This document shows, piece after piece, positions 51,946 through 56,481 of a stretch of 64,000 nt of DNA. Position numbers and translations under genes: made by a program. Source of the stretch: an uncultured Candidatus Saccharibacteria bacterium (GTDB taxonomy: Bacteria > Patescibacteriota > Minisyncoccia > UBA11713 > 2-01-FULL-45-33); the NCBI GenBank assembly GCA_964464405.1, contig CAYXFX010000001.1, forward strand, positions 3,466-67,465, written 5' to 3'. Numbering within the stretch: the stretch's first letter is position 1; every line of letters starts with the position of its first letter. The notes under the pieces were generated by a model. The model was not told where the DNA came from, made no database searches, and worked only from the letters and a program-made list of their open reading frames with translations.

Positions 51946-53283
51946 ATGGAGGATATCATGGCGATCTTTGAAAAAATGGCTGAACGAAAAATAGAGAGAA
52001 TGTTTATTTCACCAAACGATGATTCTATTGAAGAAACCAAATGGCTAATATCTGCGATGAGGGCAATGGGGCATGAAAAAGTGCTTCTTTCGTGTTATCC
52101 GGAGGTCGGGCTTAGGTCTTGCGTCGCCATACATGACCTCACATTGAGCGGTTCTATAACAGGGGAAAACGCTTTGGAAAAAGGGCCTATCGGCGGCGTA
52201 CGATTTTATCCGTATTTTTCGGAAAAAGATTGCTTACTAGACGTGTTGAAGCTTTCACAAGCAATGACAAAAAAAGCTTCAGCGGCGGGATTAAACCGCG
52301 GAGGCGCAAAATCAGTAATTTGGGGAGATCCAAAAACCGAAAAAACTTTAGCACTGCTTGCGCAATTGGCAGACGAAGTCGATTTTTTAAAAGGCAAATA
52401 CATTGCGGCTGAAGACATGGGGATTGCCGTTTCGGATTTGAGCTTTATGCGCCAAAGAACCCCGTTTGTTGCTGGGCTTCCGGAAACATATATGCGCGTA
52501 AAAAATGGCAGTGTTTTTAGAGGATCCGGTGAACCTGGTCCGATTACCGCAAAAGGCGTTATGTTGGGGATTAAAGCATGCCTTAAATTTTTAGGGCTAG
52601 GTGACTTAAATGGCAAGGTAATAGCCATTCAGGGTTTGGGGAGCGTAGGATTTCGGCTTGCGAGGTATGCGCATCAGGAAGGAGCTGAGCTTGTTTGTTG
52701 TGATAAGGAAGAGGATAGGTTGCGGCATTTCTGCGAAGAATTTCAAAAAGACGCAGCTATCGGCACTCCCGCAAGATTAGTAAGTTTGGACGCGATATAT
52801 TCTGCCAAATGTGACATCTTTGCCCCATGCGCTTTCGGTGGTGTGTTGAATGAAAAAAACATAGAAAAGTTGGACTGTAAAATTGTTGCAGGTTCTGCAA
52901 ACAATCCCTTGGCCAATTTGGAATGTGCGCGTTTGCTCAAGGAGAAAAGAGTGCTTTACGCGCCGGATTTTATTATAAATGCCGGAGGGCTCATAAATGT
53001 AGATGATGAGCTTAGATCAGACGGTTACAACGTAGAGCGCGTATTGCGTAGAATTGCAGGCACCATTCCCCGCAACCTTTTCAGAGTTTTTCTCGAATCA
53101 AAAGCTTTAGAACTTTCTCCTGCGGAAGTTGCGGAAGTTTTAGCGCGAGAACGAATCGAAACTCAAAAGAAAAAATTAGAATTTCTTTCCGATATGTTTA
53201 AAAAATCCGCAATCGAAATTGCTCGCATGCTTGAAAATGAAGAAAATCTGCTACGCGAGCTGATGAAAGTAATAACTAATTAA
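51946..53283 (+). CDS. Leu/Phe/Val dehydrogenase-family amino-acid dehydrogenase
   Basis: AAGLNRGGAKSVIWGDP (catalytic Lys motif), IQGLGSVGFRLARYAHQEGAELV (GxGxxG), CKIVAGSANNPL, YAPDFIINAGGLINV; aligns along the length with Bacillus LeuDH from memory. Confidence 0.8.
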   Translation: MEDIMAIFEKMAERKIERMFISPNDDSIEETKWLISAMRAMGHEKVLLSCYPEVGLRSCVAIHDLTLSGSITGENALEKGPIGGVRFYPYFSEKDCLLDVLKLSQAMTKKASAAGLNRGGAKSVIWGDPKTEKTLALLAQLADEVDFLKGKYIAAEDMGIAVSDLSFMRQRTPFVAGLPETYMRVKNGSVFRGSGEPGPITAKGVMLGIKACLKFLGLGDLNGKVIAIQGLGSVGFRLARYAHQEGAELVCCDKEEDRLRHFCEEFQKDAAIGTPARLVSLDAIYSAKCDIFAPCAFGGVLNEKNIEKLDCKIVAGSANNPLANLECARLLKEKRVLYAPDFIINAGGLINVDDELRSDGYNVERVLRRIAGTIPRNLFRVFLESKALELSPAEVAEVLARERIETQKKKLEFLSDMFKKSAIEIARMLENEENLLRELMKVITN

Positions 53284-53299
53284 TTTTTTTTAAATTTAA

Positions 53300-53327
53300 A
53301 AACCCGTAATTTACGGGTTTTTTATTT
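53300..53327. terminator. bidirectional terminator AAACCCGTAA-TTT-ACGGGTTT + T-run
   Basis: Between convergent dehydrogenase (+) and ammonia-lyase (-) genes. Confidence 0.65.
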
Positions 53328-54918: not shown

Positions 54919-54921
54919 TGT

Positions 54922-56481
54922 TTGCTCCTCTTATCTACCTGCACTATACTTTTATCAGATAAGAAAAGCAAACGGAGCACAAAAGTTATGGCCATACTGC
55001 CTGTCTATCAGATGTTTCTAAGAAGTAAAAGTTTTTTTCCTAAAAAACCAGCAATAATTTTTGAAGGTTTAGGCGGATTGGGGCGCGTACTTACATACCA
55101 AGATTTGCATAACGAAGTGGAACGGGTGGTGCATTTGATTTTGGATCATACTGACTTGGCGAGTCATCCTGCTTGCAGGGTGTCCGTATGCCTTCCAAAT
55201 TCTCCAGATTTCGTTTCTGTCTATCTTGCTCTTTTAAAATTAGGGATGGTGAGTGTTTTAATAAATCCGGCGCTGCCGGAGACAAGAAGAAACCAAATTG
55301 TTTACGATACCGCCTCAAAACTTTTAATTGATGAAAATTGGCTGAAAACATTCCGAAAGTCGTGTTACCTTTGCGAGTACGAATTTTCGAATTGTCTGAA
55401 AAACGCAGAACCCAAAGCCGACGACACTTCAGTTATTCTTTTTTCGTCGGGGACAACAGGAGAGCAGAAAGGTGTTGAGCTTACATATAACAATATTTTT
55501 AATAATGTTTTTTACACAAATTCGCTTACTGGCATGACGCCGGATGATAGGATAATGTGCTTTGTTCCTCTTACGCATTGTTTCGGGTTAAATTTTGTAA
55601 TGAGCGCTTGTTTTTATACCGGCGCAACGCTGGTGCTTCATGAGAAGTTTAATTTGGAACAAGTGCTTGATTCTTGTGTAAAAAATCGTGCGACGATGTT
55701 TTTTGCGGTGCCGGCGGTTTACAACACATGTTTAAAGTTTGGAATTGAACCGTTTTATTTTTCCTCCGTGCGTTATTTCTTCTACGCGGCTGATTCTCTT
55801 TCTCCAGAATCGTGCGACAGGTGGGAGCGCGAATATGGCAGGAAAATTTACACAGGGTGGGGCTTAACTGAAACTTCTCCATTTGCGACATCGAATCACG
55901 CTTCTATATTTAGGCGCGGAAGTGTGGGGAGGCCGATTCCTGGAGTGGAAATCCAAATTGTAAACGAGAACGGAAAAGATTTGGGTAAAGTGAAAAGATT
56001 TTGGGGTAATTATAAAAATTATTGCGGAGAAATTCGAGTGCGCGGGCATAATGTTATGAAAGGATATTTAAATAATCCCGAGGAAACAAAAAAAGCAATT
56101 GACAAAGATGGATGGTTTAGCACCGGGGATATTGGGTACATAGATTCGGAAGGTTATCTTCATATGATAGATAGAAAAAAAGATATGATTAATGTGGGAG
56201 GAGAAAAAGTTTGGCCGGCTATGGTTGAAAAAAGAATTCTTGCGTGCGACGCGGTGTGCGAAGTTGCCGTAGTGGGTATTCCTCATGAAACCATGGGAGA
56301 GGTACCGAAAGCTTTTATTGTTCCGAAAAATAAGAAAGTTACAAAGGCGCAGATTCATGAATTTTTATCTTCTAAAAAAATACTGACAAAAAACGAGTAT
56401 CCGAGAGAAATAGAATTCATTGATGCGTTGCCTAGAAATCCTTCCGGCAAGATTTTAAAAAATGAATTGAGAAAAAAATAA
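54922..56481 (+). CDS. AMP-forming acyl/aryl-CoA ligase, 4-coumarate-CoA ligase-like
   Basis: [20 protein letters not shown] (box I), [40 protein letters not shown] (closely resembles 4CL box II GEICIRG..IMKGYLN), GWGLTETS. Confidence 0.8.
   Translation: [519 protein letters not shown]

What the first reader, a model, noticed from the sequence alone, without database searches (positions are those of the whole stretch)
51946..56481. MIO-type aromatic ammonia-lyase divergently paired with a 4-coumarate-CoA-ligase-like enzyme, next to a Leu/Phe-dehydrogenase-family gene
The ammonia-lyase (53344-54918, - strand) has the GSIGASGDLIPLS block with the Ala-Ser-Gly triad that forms the MIO cofactor. 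The divergently transcribed gene (54922-56481) has 4CL-type box I ([11 protein letters not shown]) and a box II (GEIRVRG...[30 protein letters not shown]) strikingly close to plant and bacterial 4CL. An ammonia-lyase plus an aryl-CoA ligase is the two-step route from Tyr/Phe to (hydroxy)cinnamoyl-CoA. Known examples are the tal/pcl pair for the photoactive-yellow-protein chromophore and the encP/encH route. A Leu/Phe/Val dehydrogenase-family gene, which catalyses reversible oxidative deamination of hydrophobic or aromatic amino acids, sits immediately upstream. There are no hutU/hutI genes nearby, as would be expected if the lyase were a catabolic histidase. GC content looks native, so this is not an obvious recent acquisition. 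Aromatic secondary metabolism of this kind is unexpected in a genome that otherwise looks like a reduced CPR-type organism.
Basis: partly seen in the sequence, partly recalled or inferred. Interest (0 to 1): 0.7.

Follow-up and report, generated by a model that had tools for sequence, protein, structure and literature searches.

The report
Aromatic amino-acid lyase plus CoA-ligase module
A tiny groundwater bacterium (Candidatus Giovannonibacteria) carries a conserved two-gene unit that most likely strips ammonia from phenylalanine or a similar amino acid and attaches the product to coenzyme A; in related genomes this unit sits beside fatty-acid-style breakdown genes, so it looks like a way of breaking the amino acid down for food rather than making a pigment or antibiotic.

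Summary
The window holds an intact MIO-type lyase (53344-54918, -), a divergent ANL-family CoA ligase (true start probably ATG 54988) and a LeuDH-family dehydrogenase (51946-53283). The lyase is not a histidase: it has Asn-Gln where HAL has Gln-Glu414, and Ser86-Leu87 at the selectivity switch. That pair differs from HAL (S-H), TAL (H-L) and PAL (F-L) and is closest to the Cys-Leu of Phe-specific TcPAM.

Lyase and ligase are adjacent in every one of about 15 distinct related CPR loci with enough flank. One Giovannonibacteria ligase clade is paired with three lyase lineages that share only 24-33% identity, yet all carry a small residue plus Leu at the switch. In most of these loci, enoyl-CoA hydratase, SDR and thiolase genes follow. 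An Acidobacteriota relative embeds the pair in a homogentisate (Tyr/Phe catabolism) operon. No PKS, PYP or acyltransferase was seen anywhere.

The two-step route to an arylacryloyl-CoA is therefore supported, but as catabolism (beta-oxidative shortening), not secondary metabolism. This window is atypical because its 64 kb holds no beta-oxidation genes. The dehydrogenase is a separate, convergent transcription unit, co-located with the pair in only 3 loci. Substrate identity remains inferred.

The parts
53344..54918 (-). MIO-dependent aromatic amino-acid ammonia-lyase (or aminomutase), 524 aa, lineage A of a CPR-restricted clade. Key residues: Tyr57, Ser86-Leu87, Ala147-Ser148-Gly149, Asn200, Tyr302, Arg305, Glu434, Asn437-Gln438.
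   Evidence: PF00221 E=4e-136. Every NCBIfam equivalog scores below its cut-off. Best PDB sequence hit is AdmH, 252 bits. Catalytic and selectivity columns were read against verified PpHAL and RsTAL sequences. AlphaFold model pLDDT 86.6, TM 0.91 to SgTAM and AdmH.
54988..56481 (+). ANL-superfamily acyl/aryl-CoA ligase, 497 aa. The ORF extends upstream to TTG 54922, but ATG 54988 is the likely start. Pocket motif [11 protein letters not shown].
   Evidence: Pfam AMP-binding plus AMP-binding_C. Top PDB hit is Nt4CL2 at 206 bits, with MenE, feruloyl-CoA and malonyl-CoA synthetases close behind. A 497-aa gene call on an identical contig. Orthologs lie next to a lyase in all related loci. The Giovannonibacteria ligase clade has 100% bootstrap support.
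54919..54987 (.). 69-bp divergent intergenic region. It holds a -10-like TATACT within a promoter-like element conserved in related loci (TTGTCA, about 17 nt, TATACT, facing the ligase). A window-specific 17-nt inverted repeat (54920-54936 / 54957-54973) brackets the -10.
   Evidence: Sequence, inverted repeats, alignment of eight intergenic regions. The generic promoter scan was not above chance.
51946..53283 (+). LeuDH-family (ELFV) amino-acid dehydrogenase, 445 aa, long form with a C-terminal extension. Convergent with the lyase and a separate transcription unit.
   Evidence: Pfam. PDB LeuDH hits at about 252 bits. Equivalents of Lys68, Lys80 and Asp115 are kept, and the pocket is Ile40/Ala113/Leu291. 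Long-form relatives are co-located with the lyase-ligase pair in L010 and L174.
53298..53322 (.). Bidirectional terminator-like hairpin between the 3' ends of the dehydrogenase and the lyase.
   Evidence: 11-bp stem, flanked by A and T runs.
56480..56499 (.). Terminator-like hairpin between the 3' ends of the ligase and the sigma-70 gene (56510-57529, -).

Best explanation
The lyase and ligase form a self-contained, divergently transcribed two-gene catabolic entry module.

Step 1 (inferred from active-site residues). The MIO lyase removes ammonia non-oxidatively from phenylalanine or a closely related aromatic amino acid, giving the trans-arylacrylate (cinnamate).

Step 2 (inferred from strictly conserved pairing). 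The partner ANL ligase, whose acyl pocket is rich in Phe and lacks the hydroxyl-binding residues of 4CL, converts that acid to its CoA thioester. The thioester is already an enoyl-CoA.

Step 3 (seen as genes in relatives, not in this window). Enoyl-CoA hydratase, an SDR-type 3-hydroxyacyl-CoA dehydrogenase and thiolase(s) shorten it to aroyl-CoA plus acetyl-CoA. This supplies carbon and thioester energy to an organism that scavenges amino acids.

The neighbouring LeuDH-type dehydrogenase is a separate unit that recurrently shares the same amino-acid catabolic island. It is not an obligatory part of the module.
For: Enzyme identity and integrity:
- Full-length PF00221 with an intact catalytic set.
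- MIO fold, TM 0.91.
- The ligase has all ANL motifs.

Not a histidase:
- Asn437-Gln438 where HAL has Gln-Glu414, and Leu87 where HAL has His83.
- 352 bits against the 539 cut-off of the hutH model.

Compatible with Phe:
- Ser-Leu at the switch is nearly isosteric with the Cys107-Leu108 of Phe-specific TcPAM.
- The TcPAM C107S mutant keeps activity on cinnamate (PMC11374720).
- Glu434, Lys406 and Leu410 match the residues of the PAL-type proteins in the alignment (9eq5, P0030), not those of RsTAL or HAL; their identity to PcPAL pocket residues is from memory only.
- The ligase has Phe/Phe/Phe/Ala where 4CLs have Tyr239/Ser243/Met-or-Lys306/Ala-or-Gly309.

Functional coupling:
- Lyase-ligase adjacency is present in every CPR-clade locus with flank. 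Anchored on the lyase. Anchored on the ligase: 12 of 12 metagenome loci.
- Three gene arrangements occur.
- One ligase clade (100% bootstrap) is paired with three lyase lineages only 24-33% identical to each other, all with a small residue plus Leu at the switch.
- A conserved promoter-like element lies in the shared intergenic region.

Catabolic fate:
- ECH, SDR, thiolase and SCPx-thiolase plus DUF35 lie within 8 kb in most loci.
- The thiolases pass the TIGR01930 cut-off.
- In the non-CPR relative L097 the operon runs HPPD-HgmA-FAH-MAAI-lyase-ligase-thiolases-DUF35.
- L010 places the pair inside a LeuDH/BCKDH/ACAD/CoA-mutase island.
- The window also encodes a Trp/Tyr-permease-family transporter.
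Against: - No hydratase, SDR, thiolase or ACAD occurs anywhere in this 64-kb window, and the rest of the 156-kb contig could not be fetched. Yanofskybacteria loci also lack them within 8-10 kb. In this genome the fate of the CoA ester is therefore unknown.
- The substrate is not established. Ser-Leu is not a characterised natural switch. The lid loop (YGDKMGVGAN) and the Arg430-Arg431 pair are atypical and could indicate a different substrate.
- The best sequence and family hits are aminomutases (AdmH; TIGR04475 at 366 bits), so lyase versus mutase chemistry is unresolved.
- The accessory ECH and SDR are generic; nothing marks them as specific for aromatic substrates.
- The energy balance of an AMP-forming activation followed by a single beta-oxidation round is marginal.
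Confidence: 0.55

Rival explanations
1. The module is the same, but the substrate is different. The Ser-Leu switch, the altered lid loop and the Arg-Arg pair would adapt the lyase to Tyr, Trp, DOPA or another (possibly acidic or bulkier) aromatic amino acid, and the ligase would activate the corresponding acrylate.
For: Ser86 enlarges the para/meta end of the pocket relative to the Phe of PAL. Arg430-Arg431 and the YGD-x-M-G-V-G lid are clade-specific. No characterised enzyme in the alignment has S-L. A Trp/Tyr-permease-family transporter is encoded in the window.
Against: Lineages B and C share the small-residue-plus-Leu switch but lack the Arg-Arg pair and, in part, the lid changes, so those features are not needed for the shared specificity. 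The TAL-type His is absent. The ligase pocket lacks hydroxyl-binding residues. TcPAM C107S works on cinnamate.
Confidence: 0.2
2. Biosynthetic use. The pair would make (hydroxy)cinnamoyl-CoA as a chromophore or polyketide starter unit, like tal/pcl for PYP, EncP/EncH for enterocin or FlxA/4CL for flexirubin.
For: Lyase plus CoA ligase is exactly the opening of those pathways. In this window and in Yanofskybacteria the pair stands alone, without beta-oxidation genes.
Against: No PKS, PAS/PYP, acyltransferase or ACP lies in the window ORFs scanned or in about 25 related loci. The recurrent neighbours are catabolic. FlxA and BagA models score far below their cut-offs. The TAL-type His is absent.
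Confidence: 0.07
3. The MIO enzyme is a 2,3-aminomutase (AdmH/SgTAM-like) that makes a beta-aryl-beta-amino acid, which the ligase then activates.
For: The best PDB sequence hit is AdmH (252 bits). The best NCBIfam hit is Phe_D_beta_mut (366 bits). The best structural matches are SgTAM and AdmH, TM 0.91-0.93.
Against: 366 bits is far below the 800 cut-off, and HAL/PAL models score almost the same. Foldseek scores for PAL, TAL and HAL are nearly equal. A beta-amino acyl-CoA does not fit the hydratase/SDR/thiolase neighbours. No NRPS or peptide-assembly genes are nearby.
Confidence: 0.08
4. Reductive, Stickland-like use. Cinnamoyl-CoA would serve as an electron acceptor (reduced to 3-phenylpropionyl-CoA), balancing NADH from the adjacent LeuDH-type oxidative deamination.
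For: The dehydrogenase is adjacent here and co-located in L010 and L174. The lyase-linked dehydrogenases form a distinct long form with a shared C-terminal extension. ACAD genes occur in L010, L093 and L102.
Against: No enoyl-CoA reductase, ACAD or ETF lies in this window. Most loci carry oxidative beta-oxidation genes and no dehydrogenase (0 of 14 ligase-anchored loci). The dehydrogenase is a separate, convergent unit.
Confidence: 0.07
5. It is a catabolic histidase (HutH) with an unrelated fatty-acyl-CoA synthetase next door.
For: The HAL subfamily model scores 364 bits. Database names for relatives include 'histidine ammonia-lyase' and 'long-chain acyl-CoA synthetase'.
Against: HAL His83 and Glu414 are replaced by Leu87 and Gln438. 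Scores are below the cut-offs of both HAL models. No hutU/hutI is in the window. The strict conservation of lyase-ligase pairing argues against coincidence.
Confidence: 0.02

Closest known systems
Beta-oxidative phenylalanine-to-benzoyl-CoA route: bacterial EncP/EncH/EncI/EncJ of enterocin biosynthesis (from memory) and plant peroxisomal PAL-CNL-CHD-KAT (PMC12408352, PMC8924275)
   Same: The order of chemistry is the same: MIO lyase, then cinnamate:CoA ligase, then hydratase, dehydrogenase and thiolase. Related CPR loci encode all of these side by side.
   Different: No PKS or other consumer of benzoyl-CoA is present, and the context is an amino-acid/acyl-CoA catabolic island. The lyase has Ser-Leu rather than the PAL Phe-Leu. 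The ligase is from the PRK06187/'long-chain' branch, not a plant CNL/4CL. In this window the beta-oxidation genes are not nearby.
TAL/4CL pairs for chromophores and pigments (tal/pcl for photoactive yellow protein, from memory; FlxA + 4CL of flexirubin, PMC3992019)
   Same: An adjacent MIO lyase and aryl-CoA ligase.
   Different: No His at the selectivity switch. FlxA model 313 bits against a 700 cut-off. The ligase lacks the hydroxyl-binding pocket residues. No PYP or polyene genes are present.
AdmH (Pantoea agglomerans phenylalanine aminomutase, PDB 3unv) and TcPAM
   Same: AdmH is the closest solved relative by sequence (252 bits) and by fold (TM 0.91/0.93). The switch is a small residue followed by an aliphatic one (AdmH Ala-Val; TcPAM Cys107-Leu108).
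   Different: About 31% identity. The TIGR04475 score is 366 against an 800 cut-off. AdmH has Phe-Gln where the window has Asn-Gln. The genomic context is catabolic, not NRPS/PKS.
Histidine ammonia-lyase HutH (P. putida, PDB 1gkm/1b8f)
   Same: Same fold and MIO triad, with Ser at the first switch position.
   Different: His83 is replaced by Leu, and Gln-Glu414 by Asn-Gln. No hut operon is present.
Beta-oxidation genes reported in the Parcubacterium 'Candidatus Parcunitrobacter nitroensis' (PMC5220378)
   Same: Shows that co-localised ECH/HBD/thiolase/ACAD/acyl-CoA synthetase clusters exist in CPR.
   Different: That report interprets them as fatty-acid/butyrate metabolism and does not mention an MIO lyase as an entry point.

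Membership tests
MIO-dependent aromatic amino-acid lyase/aminomutase superfamily (PF00221) | Full-length Lyase_aromatic domain above the gathering threshold | tested here: met
   454.8 bits against a 27.3 cut-off, profile positions 1-466 of 466
MIO-dependent aromatic amino-acid lyase/aminomutase superfamily (PF00221) | Ala-Ser-Gly triad that cyclises to MIO, plus the catalytic lid Tyr, Asn, Tyr and Arg | tested here: met
   A147-S148-G149, Y57, N200, Y302 and R305 align with RsTAL A149-S150-G151, Y60, N203, Y300 and R303. Actual MIO formation cannot be tested here.
MIO-dependent aromatic amino-acid lyase/aminomutase superfamily (PF00221) | Characteristic all-helical MIO-enzyme fold | tested here: met
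   AlphaFold pLDDT 86.6, pTM 0.90. Foldseek TM 0.91 to SgTAM and AdmH, 0.88 to AvPAL.
Histidine ammonia-lyase (HutH) | His83 and Glu414 (P. putida numbering) that bind the imidazole substrate | tested here: not met
   Leu87 and Gln438 occupy these positions (against the PDB-verified PpHAL sequence). The role of these residues is from established HAL literature (memory).
Histidine ammonia-lyase (HutH) | Score above the curated hutH model cut-off | tested here: not met
   TIGR01225 352.1 against 539.15; NF006871 363.6 against 524
Histidine ammonia-lyase (HutH) | hutU/hutI neighbours | tested here: not met
   None among the window ORFs scanned or in related loci
Tyrosine ammonia-lyase | His at the selectivity switch (RsTAL His89) | tested here: not met
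   Ser86. FlxA and BagA models score below their cut-offs.
Canonical phenylalanine ammonia-lyase | Phe-Leu at the selectivity switch; score above the TIGR01226 cut-off | tested here: not met
   Ser-Leu; 325.3 against 519.15. Failing this lowers the claim 'is a canonical PAL', not the claim 'acts on Phe' (TcPAM C107S precedent).
AdmH-type phenylalanine 2,3-aminomutase (TIGR04475) | Score above the equivalog cut-off | tested here: not met
   366.4 against 800
AdmH-type phenylalanine 2,3-aminomutase (TIGR04475) | Mutase rather than lyase product outcome | not testable with these tools
   No reliable sequence determinant exists; an enzyme assay is needed.
4-coumarate:CoA ligase (bona fide 4CL) | ANL box I (SSGTTGxxKG), box II (GEICIRG-like) and the C-terminal catalytic Lys | tested here: met
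   [18 protein letters not shown] and PSGKILK are present. These motifs are shared with non-4CL ANL enzymes.
4-coumarate:CoA ligase (bona fide 4CL) | Hydroxycinnamate-pocket residues (Tyr239, Ser243, Met/Lys306, Ala/Gly309 in Nt4CL2/Pp4CL1 numbering) | tested here: not met
   Phe, Phe, Phe and Ala in the HMMER alignment to 5bsw. The PL[TF]HCFG[LQ]NF motif is conserved in all lyase-linked ligases. Residue roles are from PMC5239791.
4-coumarate:CoA ligase (bona fide 4CL) | Clusters with 4CL rather than with fatty-acyl, MenE or malonyl-CoA ligases | tested here: inconclusive
   The PDB ranking puts 4CL2 first at 206 bits, but MenE scores 191, feruloyl-CoA and malonyl-CoA synthetases 189 and FadD13 185. 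The best NCBIfam hit is PRK06187 'long-chain-fatty-acid--CoA ligase', 367 against 476. No tree with reference clades was built.
Leu/Phe/Val dehydrogenase (ELFV family) | Both ELFV domains and the catalytic Lys68, Lys80 and Asp115 | tested here: met
Leu/Phe/Val dehydrogenase (ELFV family) | Side-chain pocket diagnostic of LeuDH (Ala113, Val291) versus PheDH (Gly, Leu) | tested here: inconclusive
   Ala113 (LeuDH-like) together with Leu291 (PheDH-like) and Ile40. Residue roles are from memory.
Beta-oxidative aromatic side-chain shortening pathway (EncP/H/I/J-like) | Lyase and CoA ligase encoded together | tested here: met
Beta-oxidative aromatic side-chain shortening pathway (EncP/H/I/J-like) | Enoyl-CoA hydratase, 3-hydroxyacyl-CoA dehydrogenase and thiolase in the same genome or cluster | tested here: not met
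   Absent from the 64-kb window. Present in most related loci.

The most novel reading that the evidence does not exclude
Ultra-small CPR bacteria, and some Acidobacteriota, use an undescribed, redox-sparing route for aromatic amino-acid catabolism. An MIO lyase and a dedicated CoA ligase deliver the amino acid directly as an enoyl-CoA into a one-round beta-oxidation or retro-aldol step (SCPx-thiolase/DUF35). The ligase is the conserved core, around which at least three very divergent lyase lineages have been exchanged. All of them share a small-residue-plus-Leu selectivity switch that defines a specificity class not yet characterised, possibly for a substrate other than Phe or Tyr.
Probability: 0.3. 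Interest if true: 0.65.

Novelty: new variant of a known kind. Interest (0 to 1): 0.5.

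Why it matters
CPR/Patescibacteria are thought to have minimal, mostly fermentative metabolism, and what they actually consume is poorly known. A conserved lyase-ligase module that feeds beta-oxidation would identify aromatic amino acids as a substrate class for Giovannonibacteria and their relatives. It would also add a non-oxidative entry into beta-oxidation, one that avoids the 2-oxoacid dehydrogenase and acyl-CoA dehydrogenase steps.

For enzymology, the natural Ser-Leu (or Ala-Leu) switch, the altered lid loop and the Asn-Ser-Gly triad variants are new sequence space for MIO enzymes, which are widely used as biocatalysts. One ligase clade being paired with three very divergent lyase lineages is also an unusually clear case of partner replacement within a conserved two-gene unit.

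Tried and rejected
- NCBIfam classification: none of the three proteins reaches any equivalog cut-off, so names cannot be transferred.
- Fetching the rest of the source contig (156,792 bp) through the exact lyase sequence returned only short Logan contigs. The genome is not among the GTDB species representatives. Whether beta-oxidation genes occur elsewhere in this genome therefore could not be checked.
- The generic promoter and terminator scan was not above shuffled expectation (12 found against 13.6 expected). Only the two strong hairpins and the cross-locus conserved -35/-10 element are used.
- The fold search does not discriminate function: TAM, PAL, PAM, TAL and HAL all score TM 0.83-0.92.
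- The accessory ECH and SDR of related loci are generic (crotonase, FabG-like) with no aromatic-specific signature. Several small recurrent neighbours have no Pfam hit, and only a weak DUF35 signal appears for the 184-aa protein.
- Literature searches for a CPR MIO lyase or cinnamoyl-CoA pathway found nothing specific.
- Ligase orthology across all CPR lineages is not established. The Yanofsky/Sungbacteria ligases form a separate clade whose position relative to non-CPR 'long-chain' ligases is unresolved in a 50-replicate NJ tree.
- The sister-group ligase P0149 has only about 500 bp of upstream sequence, so whether it is paired with a lyase cannot be judged.
- The histidase reading was rejected on residues.

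Full report
OBSERVATION

- The lyase (53344-54918, minus strand, 524 aa) matches Pfam Lyase_aromatic end to end (E=4e-136) and contains GSIGASGDLIPLS with Ala147-Ser148-Gly149.
- The plus-strand ORF from 54922 is an AMP-binding/AMP-binding_C enzyme. Gene calls on identical Logan contigs give 497 aa and ortholog N-termini agree, so the real start is most likely the ATG at 54988. That leaves a 69-bp divergent intergenic region.
- The 445-aa protein at 51946-53283 has both ELFV dehydrogenase domains.
- GC content is flat across the window.
- The dehydrogenase is not upstream of the lyase. The two genes converge, with a strong bidirectional hairpin between them (53298-53322). A second hairpin (56480-56499) separates the ligase from a convergent sigma-70 gene. 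The lyase-ligase pair is therefore an isolated divergent unit.
- The window's EF-Tu is an exact match to a protein annotated as Candidatus Giovannonibacteria.

WHAT THE LYASE IS

No NCBIfam equivalog cut-off is reached. Phe aminomutase (366 bits), HAL (364/352), PAL (325), FlxA-TAL (313) and TAM (292) models score similarly. The best solved relative by sequence is AdmH (252 bits).

An AlphaFold model (pLDDT 86.6) superposes on SgTAM and AdmH at TM 0.91 and on AvPAL at 0.88, but HAL and TAL are nearly as close. Fold does not decide function.

I verified PpHAL and RsTAL sequences against the PDB and aligned them with the window protein, the AdmH, SgTAM and 9eq5 chains, and database relatives.

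- The catalytic set is intact: Tyr57, Ala-Ser-Gly, Asn200, Tyr302, Arg305.
- Where HAL has Gln-Glu414, the window has Asn437-Gln438, like PAL, TAL and the mutases. Where HAL has His83, it has Leu87. It is not a histidase.
- At the RsTAL His89-Leu90 switch it has Ser86-Leu87. This matches neither TAL (H-L), PAL (F-L; 9eq5 is a Planctomyces PAL), HAL/SgTAM (S-H) nor AdmH (A-V).
- In Phe-specific TcPAM the equivalent residues are Cys107-Leu108. Cys107 is described as the substrate-recognition residue, and the C107S mutant retains slightly enhanced activity on cinnamate (PMC11374720). The correspondence of the TcPAM LIRCL motif with the window's LIDSL is from memory of the TcPAM sequence.
- Ser-Leu is therefore compatible with Phe, but the substrate is inferred, not shown.
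- Clade-specific oddities are the lid sequence YGD-x-M-G-V-G-A-N (canonical YG-x-T-T-G-F-G) and an Arg430-Arg431 pair.

DISTRIBUTION AND PAIRING

The lyase has a CPR-restricted ortholog clade at 49-68% identity (Giovanno-, Yanofsky- and Sungbacteria), followed by a drop to about 40% or less.

In every clade locus with flanking sequence the lyase sits next to a ligase of the same subfamily:
- divergent in Giovannonibacteria;
- co-directional with overlapping stop and start codons in Yanofskybacteria;
- co-directional in Sungbacteria.

I then anchored on the ligase instead. Three database orthologs all have a divergent Lyase_aromatic gene, as do all 12 of the ligase-anchored metagenome loci that have upstream flank. 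In most of these, however, the lyase is only 24-33% identical to the window's lyase.

One ligase clade (100% bootstrap in an NJ tree) is thus partnered with at least three lyase lineages: A, B and the L095 type. These are as divergent from each other as HAL is from PAL. Even so, all carry a small residue (Ser or Ala) plus Leu at the switch, whereas their nearest unpaired relatives carry Phe-Leu.

A sigma-70-like element (TTGTCA, about 17 nt, TATACT) facing the ligase is conserved in the intergenic region whichever lyase lineage is present. In the window the -35 is degenerate, and a 17-nt inverted repeat brackets the -10.

Together these results make functional coupling of lyase and ligase the best-supported single conclusion.

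WHAT THE LIGASE IS

It has all ANL motifs. The top PDB hit is tobacco 4CL2 (206 bits), but MenE (191), feruloyl-CoA and malonyl-CoA synthetases (189) and FadD13 (185) are close. The best NCBIfam model is a 'long-chain-fatty-acid--CoA ligase' subfamily, below its cut-off.

In the alignment to 4CL2, the hydroxycinnamate-pocket residues Tyr239, Ser243, Met306 and Ala309 are Phe, Phe, Phe and Ala (residue roles from PMC5239791). The motif PL[T/F]HCFG[L/Q]NF is shared by all lyase-linked ligases and by non-CPR relatives labelled long-chain ligases.

The ligase probably works like a cinnamate:CoA ligase, but it is not a canonical 4CL.

WHAT HAPPENS NEXT

Related loci carry the following genes within a few kb of the pair:
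- enoyl-CoA hydratase, an SDR and thiolase (L001/L016, L093, L094, L098, L101-L107);
- ECH, thiolase, SCPx-type thiolase and DUF35 (L095/L108/L109);
- thiolase alone (L005, L010, L100);
- SCPx-thiolase plus DUF35 (L012).

The thiolases pass the acetyl-CoA C-acyltransferase subfamily cut-off; the ECH and SDR are generic.

In an Acidobacteriota genome, a PAL-type (Phe-Leu) lyase of the nearest outgroup and a ligase 40% identical to the window's lie in one operon. That operon also carries HPPD, homogentisate dioxygenase, fumarylacetoacetase and maleylacetoacetate isomerase, followed by SCPx-thiolases and DUF35 proteins.

L010 places the pair in an island with LeuDH, BCKDH E1/E2, ACAD, a CoA mutase and an H+-PPase.

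No PKS, PYP or acyltransferase appears anywhere.

The consistent reading is catabolic. The lyase-ligase pair delivers an aromatic amino acid as an enoyl-CoA to a single round of beta-oxidation (or a retro-aldol step), yielding aroyl-CoA (or an aldehyde) plus acetyl-CoA. Beta-oxidation clusters in Parcubacteria have been reported before, without an MIO lyase (PMC5220378).

CAVEATS FOR THIS WINDOW

tblastn with all accessory proteins finds no hydratase, SDR, thiolase, ACAD or BCKDH in the 64 kb. The rest of the contig was not retrievable. Yanofskybacteria loci also lack these genes nearby. In this genome the fate of the CoA ester is therefore open.

THE DEHYDROGENASE

It is a LeuDH-family enzyme: PDB LeuDH hits score about 252 bits against 150 for PheDH, and ordinary LeuDHs are 40-45% identical. 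The catalytic residues are intact. The pocket is mixed, with Ala113 as in LeuDH and Leu291 as in PheDH.

It is co-located with the pair in three independent loci: the window, L010 and L174. Those three share a C-terminal extension of about 30-35 residues that other CPR members of the clade lack. It is absent within 8 kb in all 14 ligase-anchored metagenome loci.

I regard it as a frequent neighbour within an amino-acid catabolic island, not as a component of the module.

VERDICT

The chemistry is of a known kind (lyase, CoA ligase, beta-oxidation). The setting and several features are new:
- a CPR-restricted clade;
- the Ser-Leu switch;
- lyase lineage replacement around a conserved ligase;
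- a catabolic rather than biosynthetic role.

Substrate identity, lyase versus mutase outcome and the downstream fate in this genome remain inferred.

Noticed in passing
window 39014-40156 (+): A 380-aa Trp/Tyr-permease-family (HAAAP) transporter (Pfam 48 bits, GA 22). It lies in a run with a SLOG/LOG-like protein (37974-38552), MgtC (38554-39027) and a P-type ATPase (40160-42832). It is a possible uptake route for aromatic amino acids, about 13 kb from the lyase.
   Followed up: no
window 11536-12102 (+): A 188-aa protein with a PaaX central (Cas2-like) domain (80 bits) is inserted between fusA (9103-11202) and tuf (12323-13516). PaaX regulators respond to an aryl-acyl-CoA (phenylacetyl-CoA) in other bacteria. 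Its relevance here is unknown.
   Followed up: no
L094 6442-7920 and L174 4753-6300: Two lineage-B lyases from independent contigs have Asn-Ser-Gly instead of Ala-Ser-Gly at the MIO-forming triad (GSIGNSGDL / GSLNNSGDL). This triad variant was not seen in any reference examined.
   Followed up: partly
L093-L095, L098-L111, L174 versus the window: One Giovannonibacteria ligase clade (50-59% identical to the window's ligase) is paired with three lyase lineages that share only 24-33% identity. This suggests repeated replacement, or very fast evolution, of the lyase partner.
   Followed up: partly
L012/L013 3097-4191: A Rieske / ring-hydroxylating-dioxygenase alpha-subunit-like gene (364 aa) lies about 5 kb from the lyase-ligase pair in a CPR-type contig. 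It has no NCBIfam hit at E<=1e-10. An oxygenase acting on aromatics would be unexpected in CPR.
   Followed up: no
L097 443-11160 (Acidobacteriota, GCA_035559995.1): An operon combines the complete homogentisate pathway (HPPD, HgmA, FAH, MAAI) with a PAL-type MIO lyase, a CoA ligase, two SCPx-type thiolase-like proteins and two DUF35 proteins. This may be an uncharacterised combined Tyr/Phe catabolic cluster outside the CPR.
   Followed up: partly
window 51946-53283; L010 13105-14391; L174 1215-2519: The lyase-linked LeuDH-like dehydrogenases share an extra C-terminal segment of about 30-35 residues. All CPR members of the clade have an N-terminal insertion of about 30 residues relative to classical LeuDH. 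The window protein alone has an 11-residue insert (SGSITGENALEKG) after the IHDLTL motif.
   Followed up: partly
window 60890-64000 (+): A long ORF (more than 1000 aa) runs off the window end and is therefore missing from the ORF list. Its N-terminus (FPKMEEEILEFWEANKIF) looks like a class I aminoacyl-tRNA synthetase, probably IleRS.
   Followed up: partly
window 50671-51856 (-): A VKOR-family protein (50671-51129) overlaps a DsbA-like thioredoxin-fold protein (51101-51856), forming a disulfide-bond formation pair immediately before the dehydrogenase gene.
   Followed up: no
window 57891-58244 (-) and 58250-58696 (-): A tmRNA gene (Rfam 93 bits; tag peptide ANLFSKVANALRPMQLATSYA) sits next to a probable smpB gene (148 aa; assignment by eye, not run against Pfam), just downstream of the sigma-70 gene that flanks the ligase.
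   Followed up: no
L010 15321-17372: A membrane H+-pyrophosphatase gene lies at the edge of the island rich in CoA ligases. It could recover energy from the PPi released by AMP-forming ligases.
   Followed up: no
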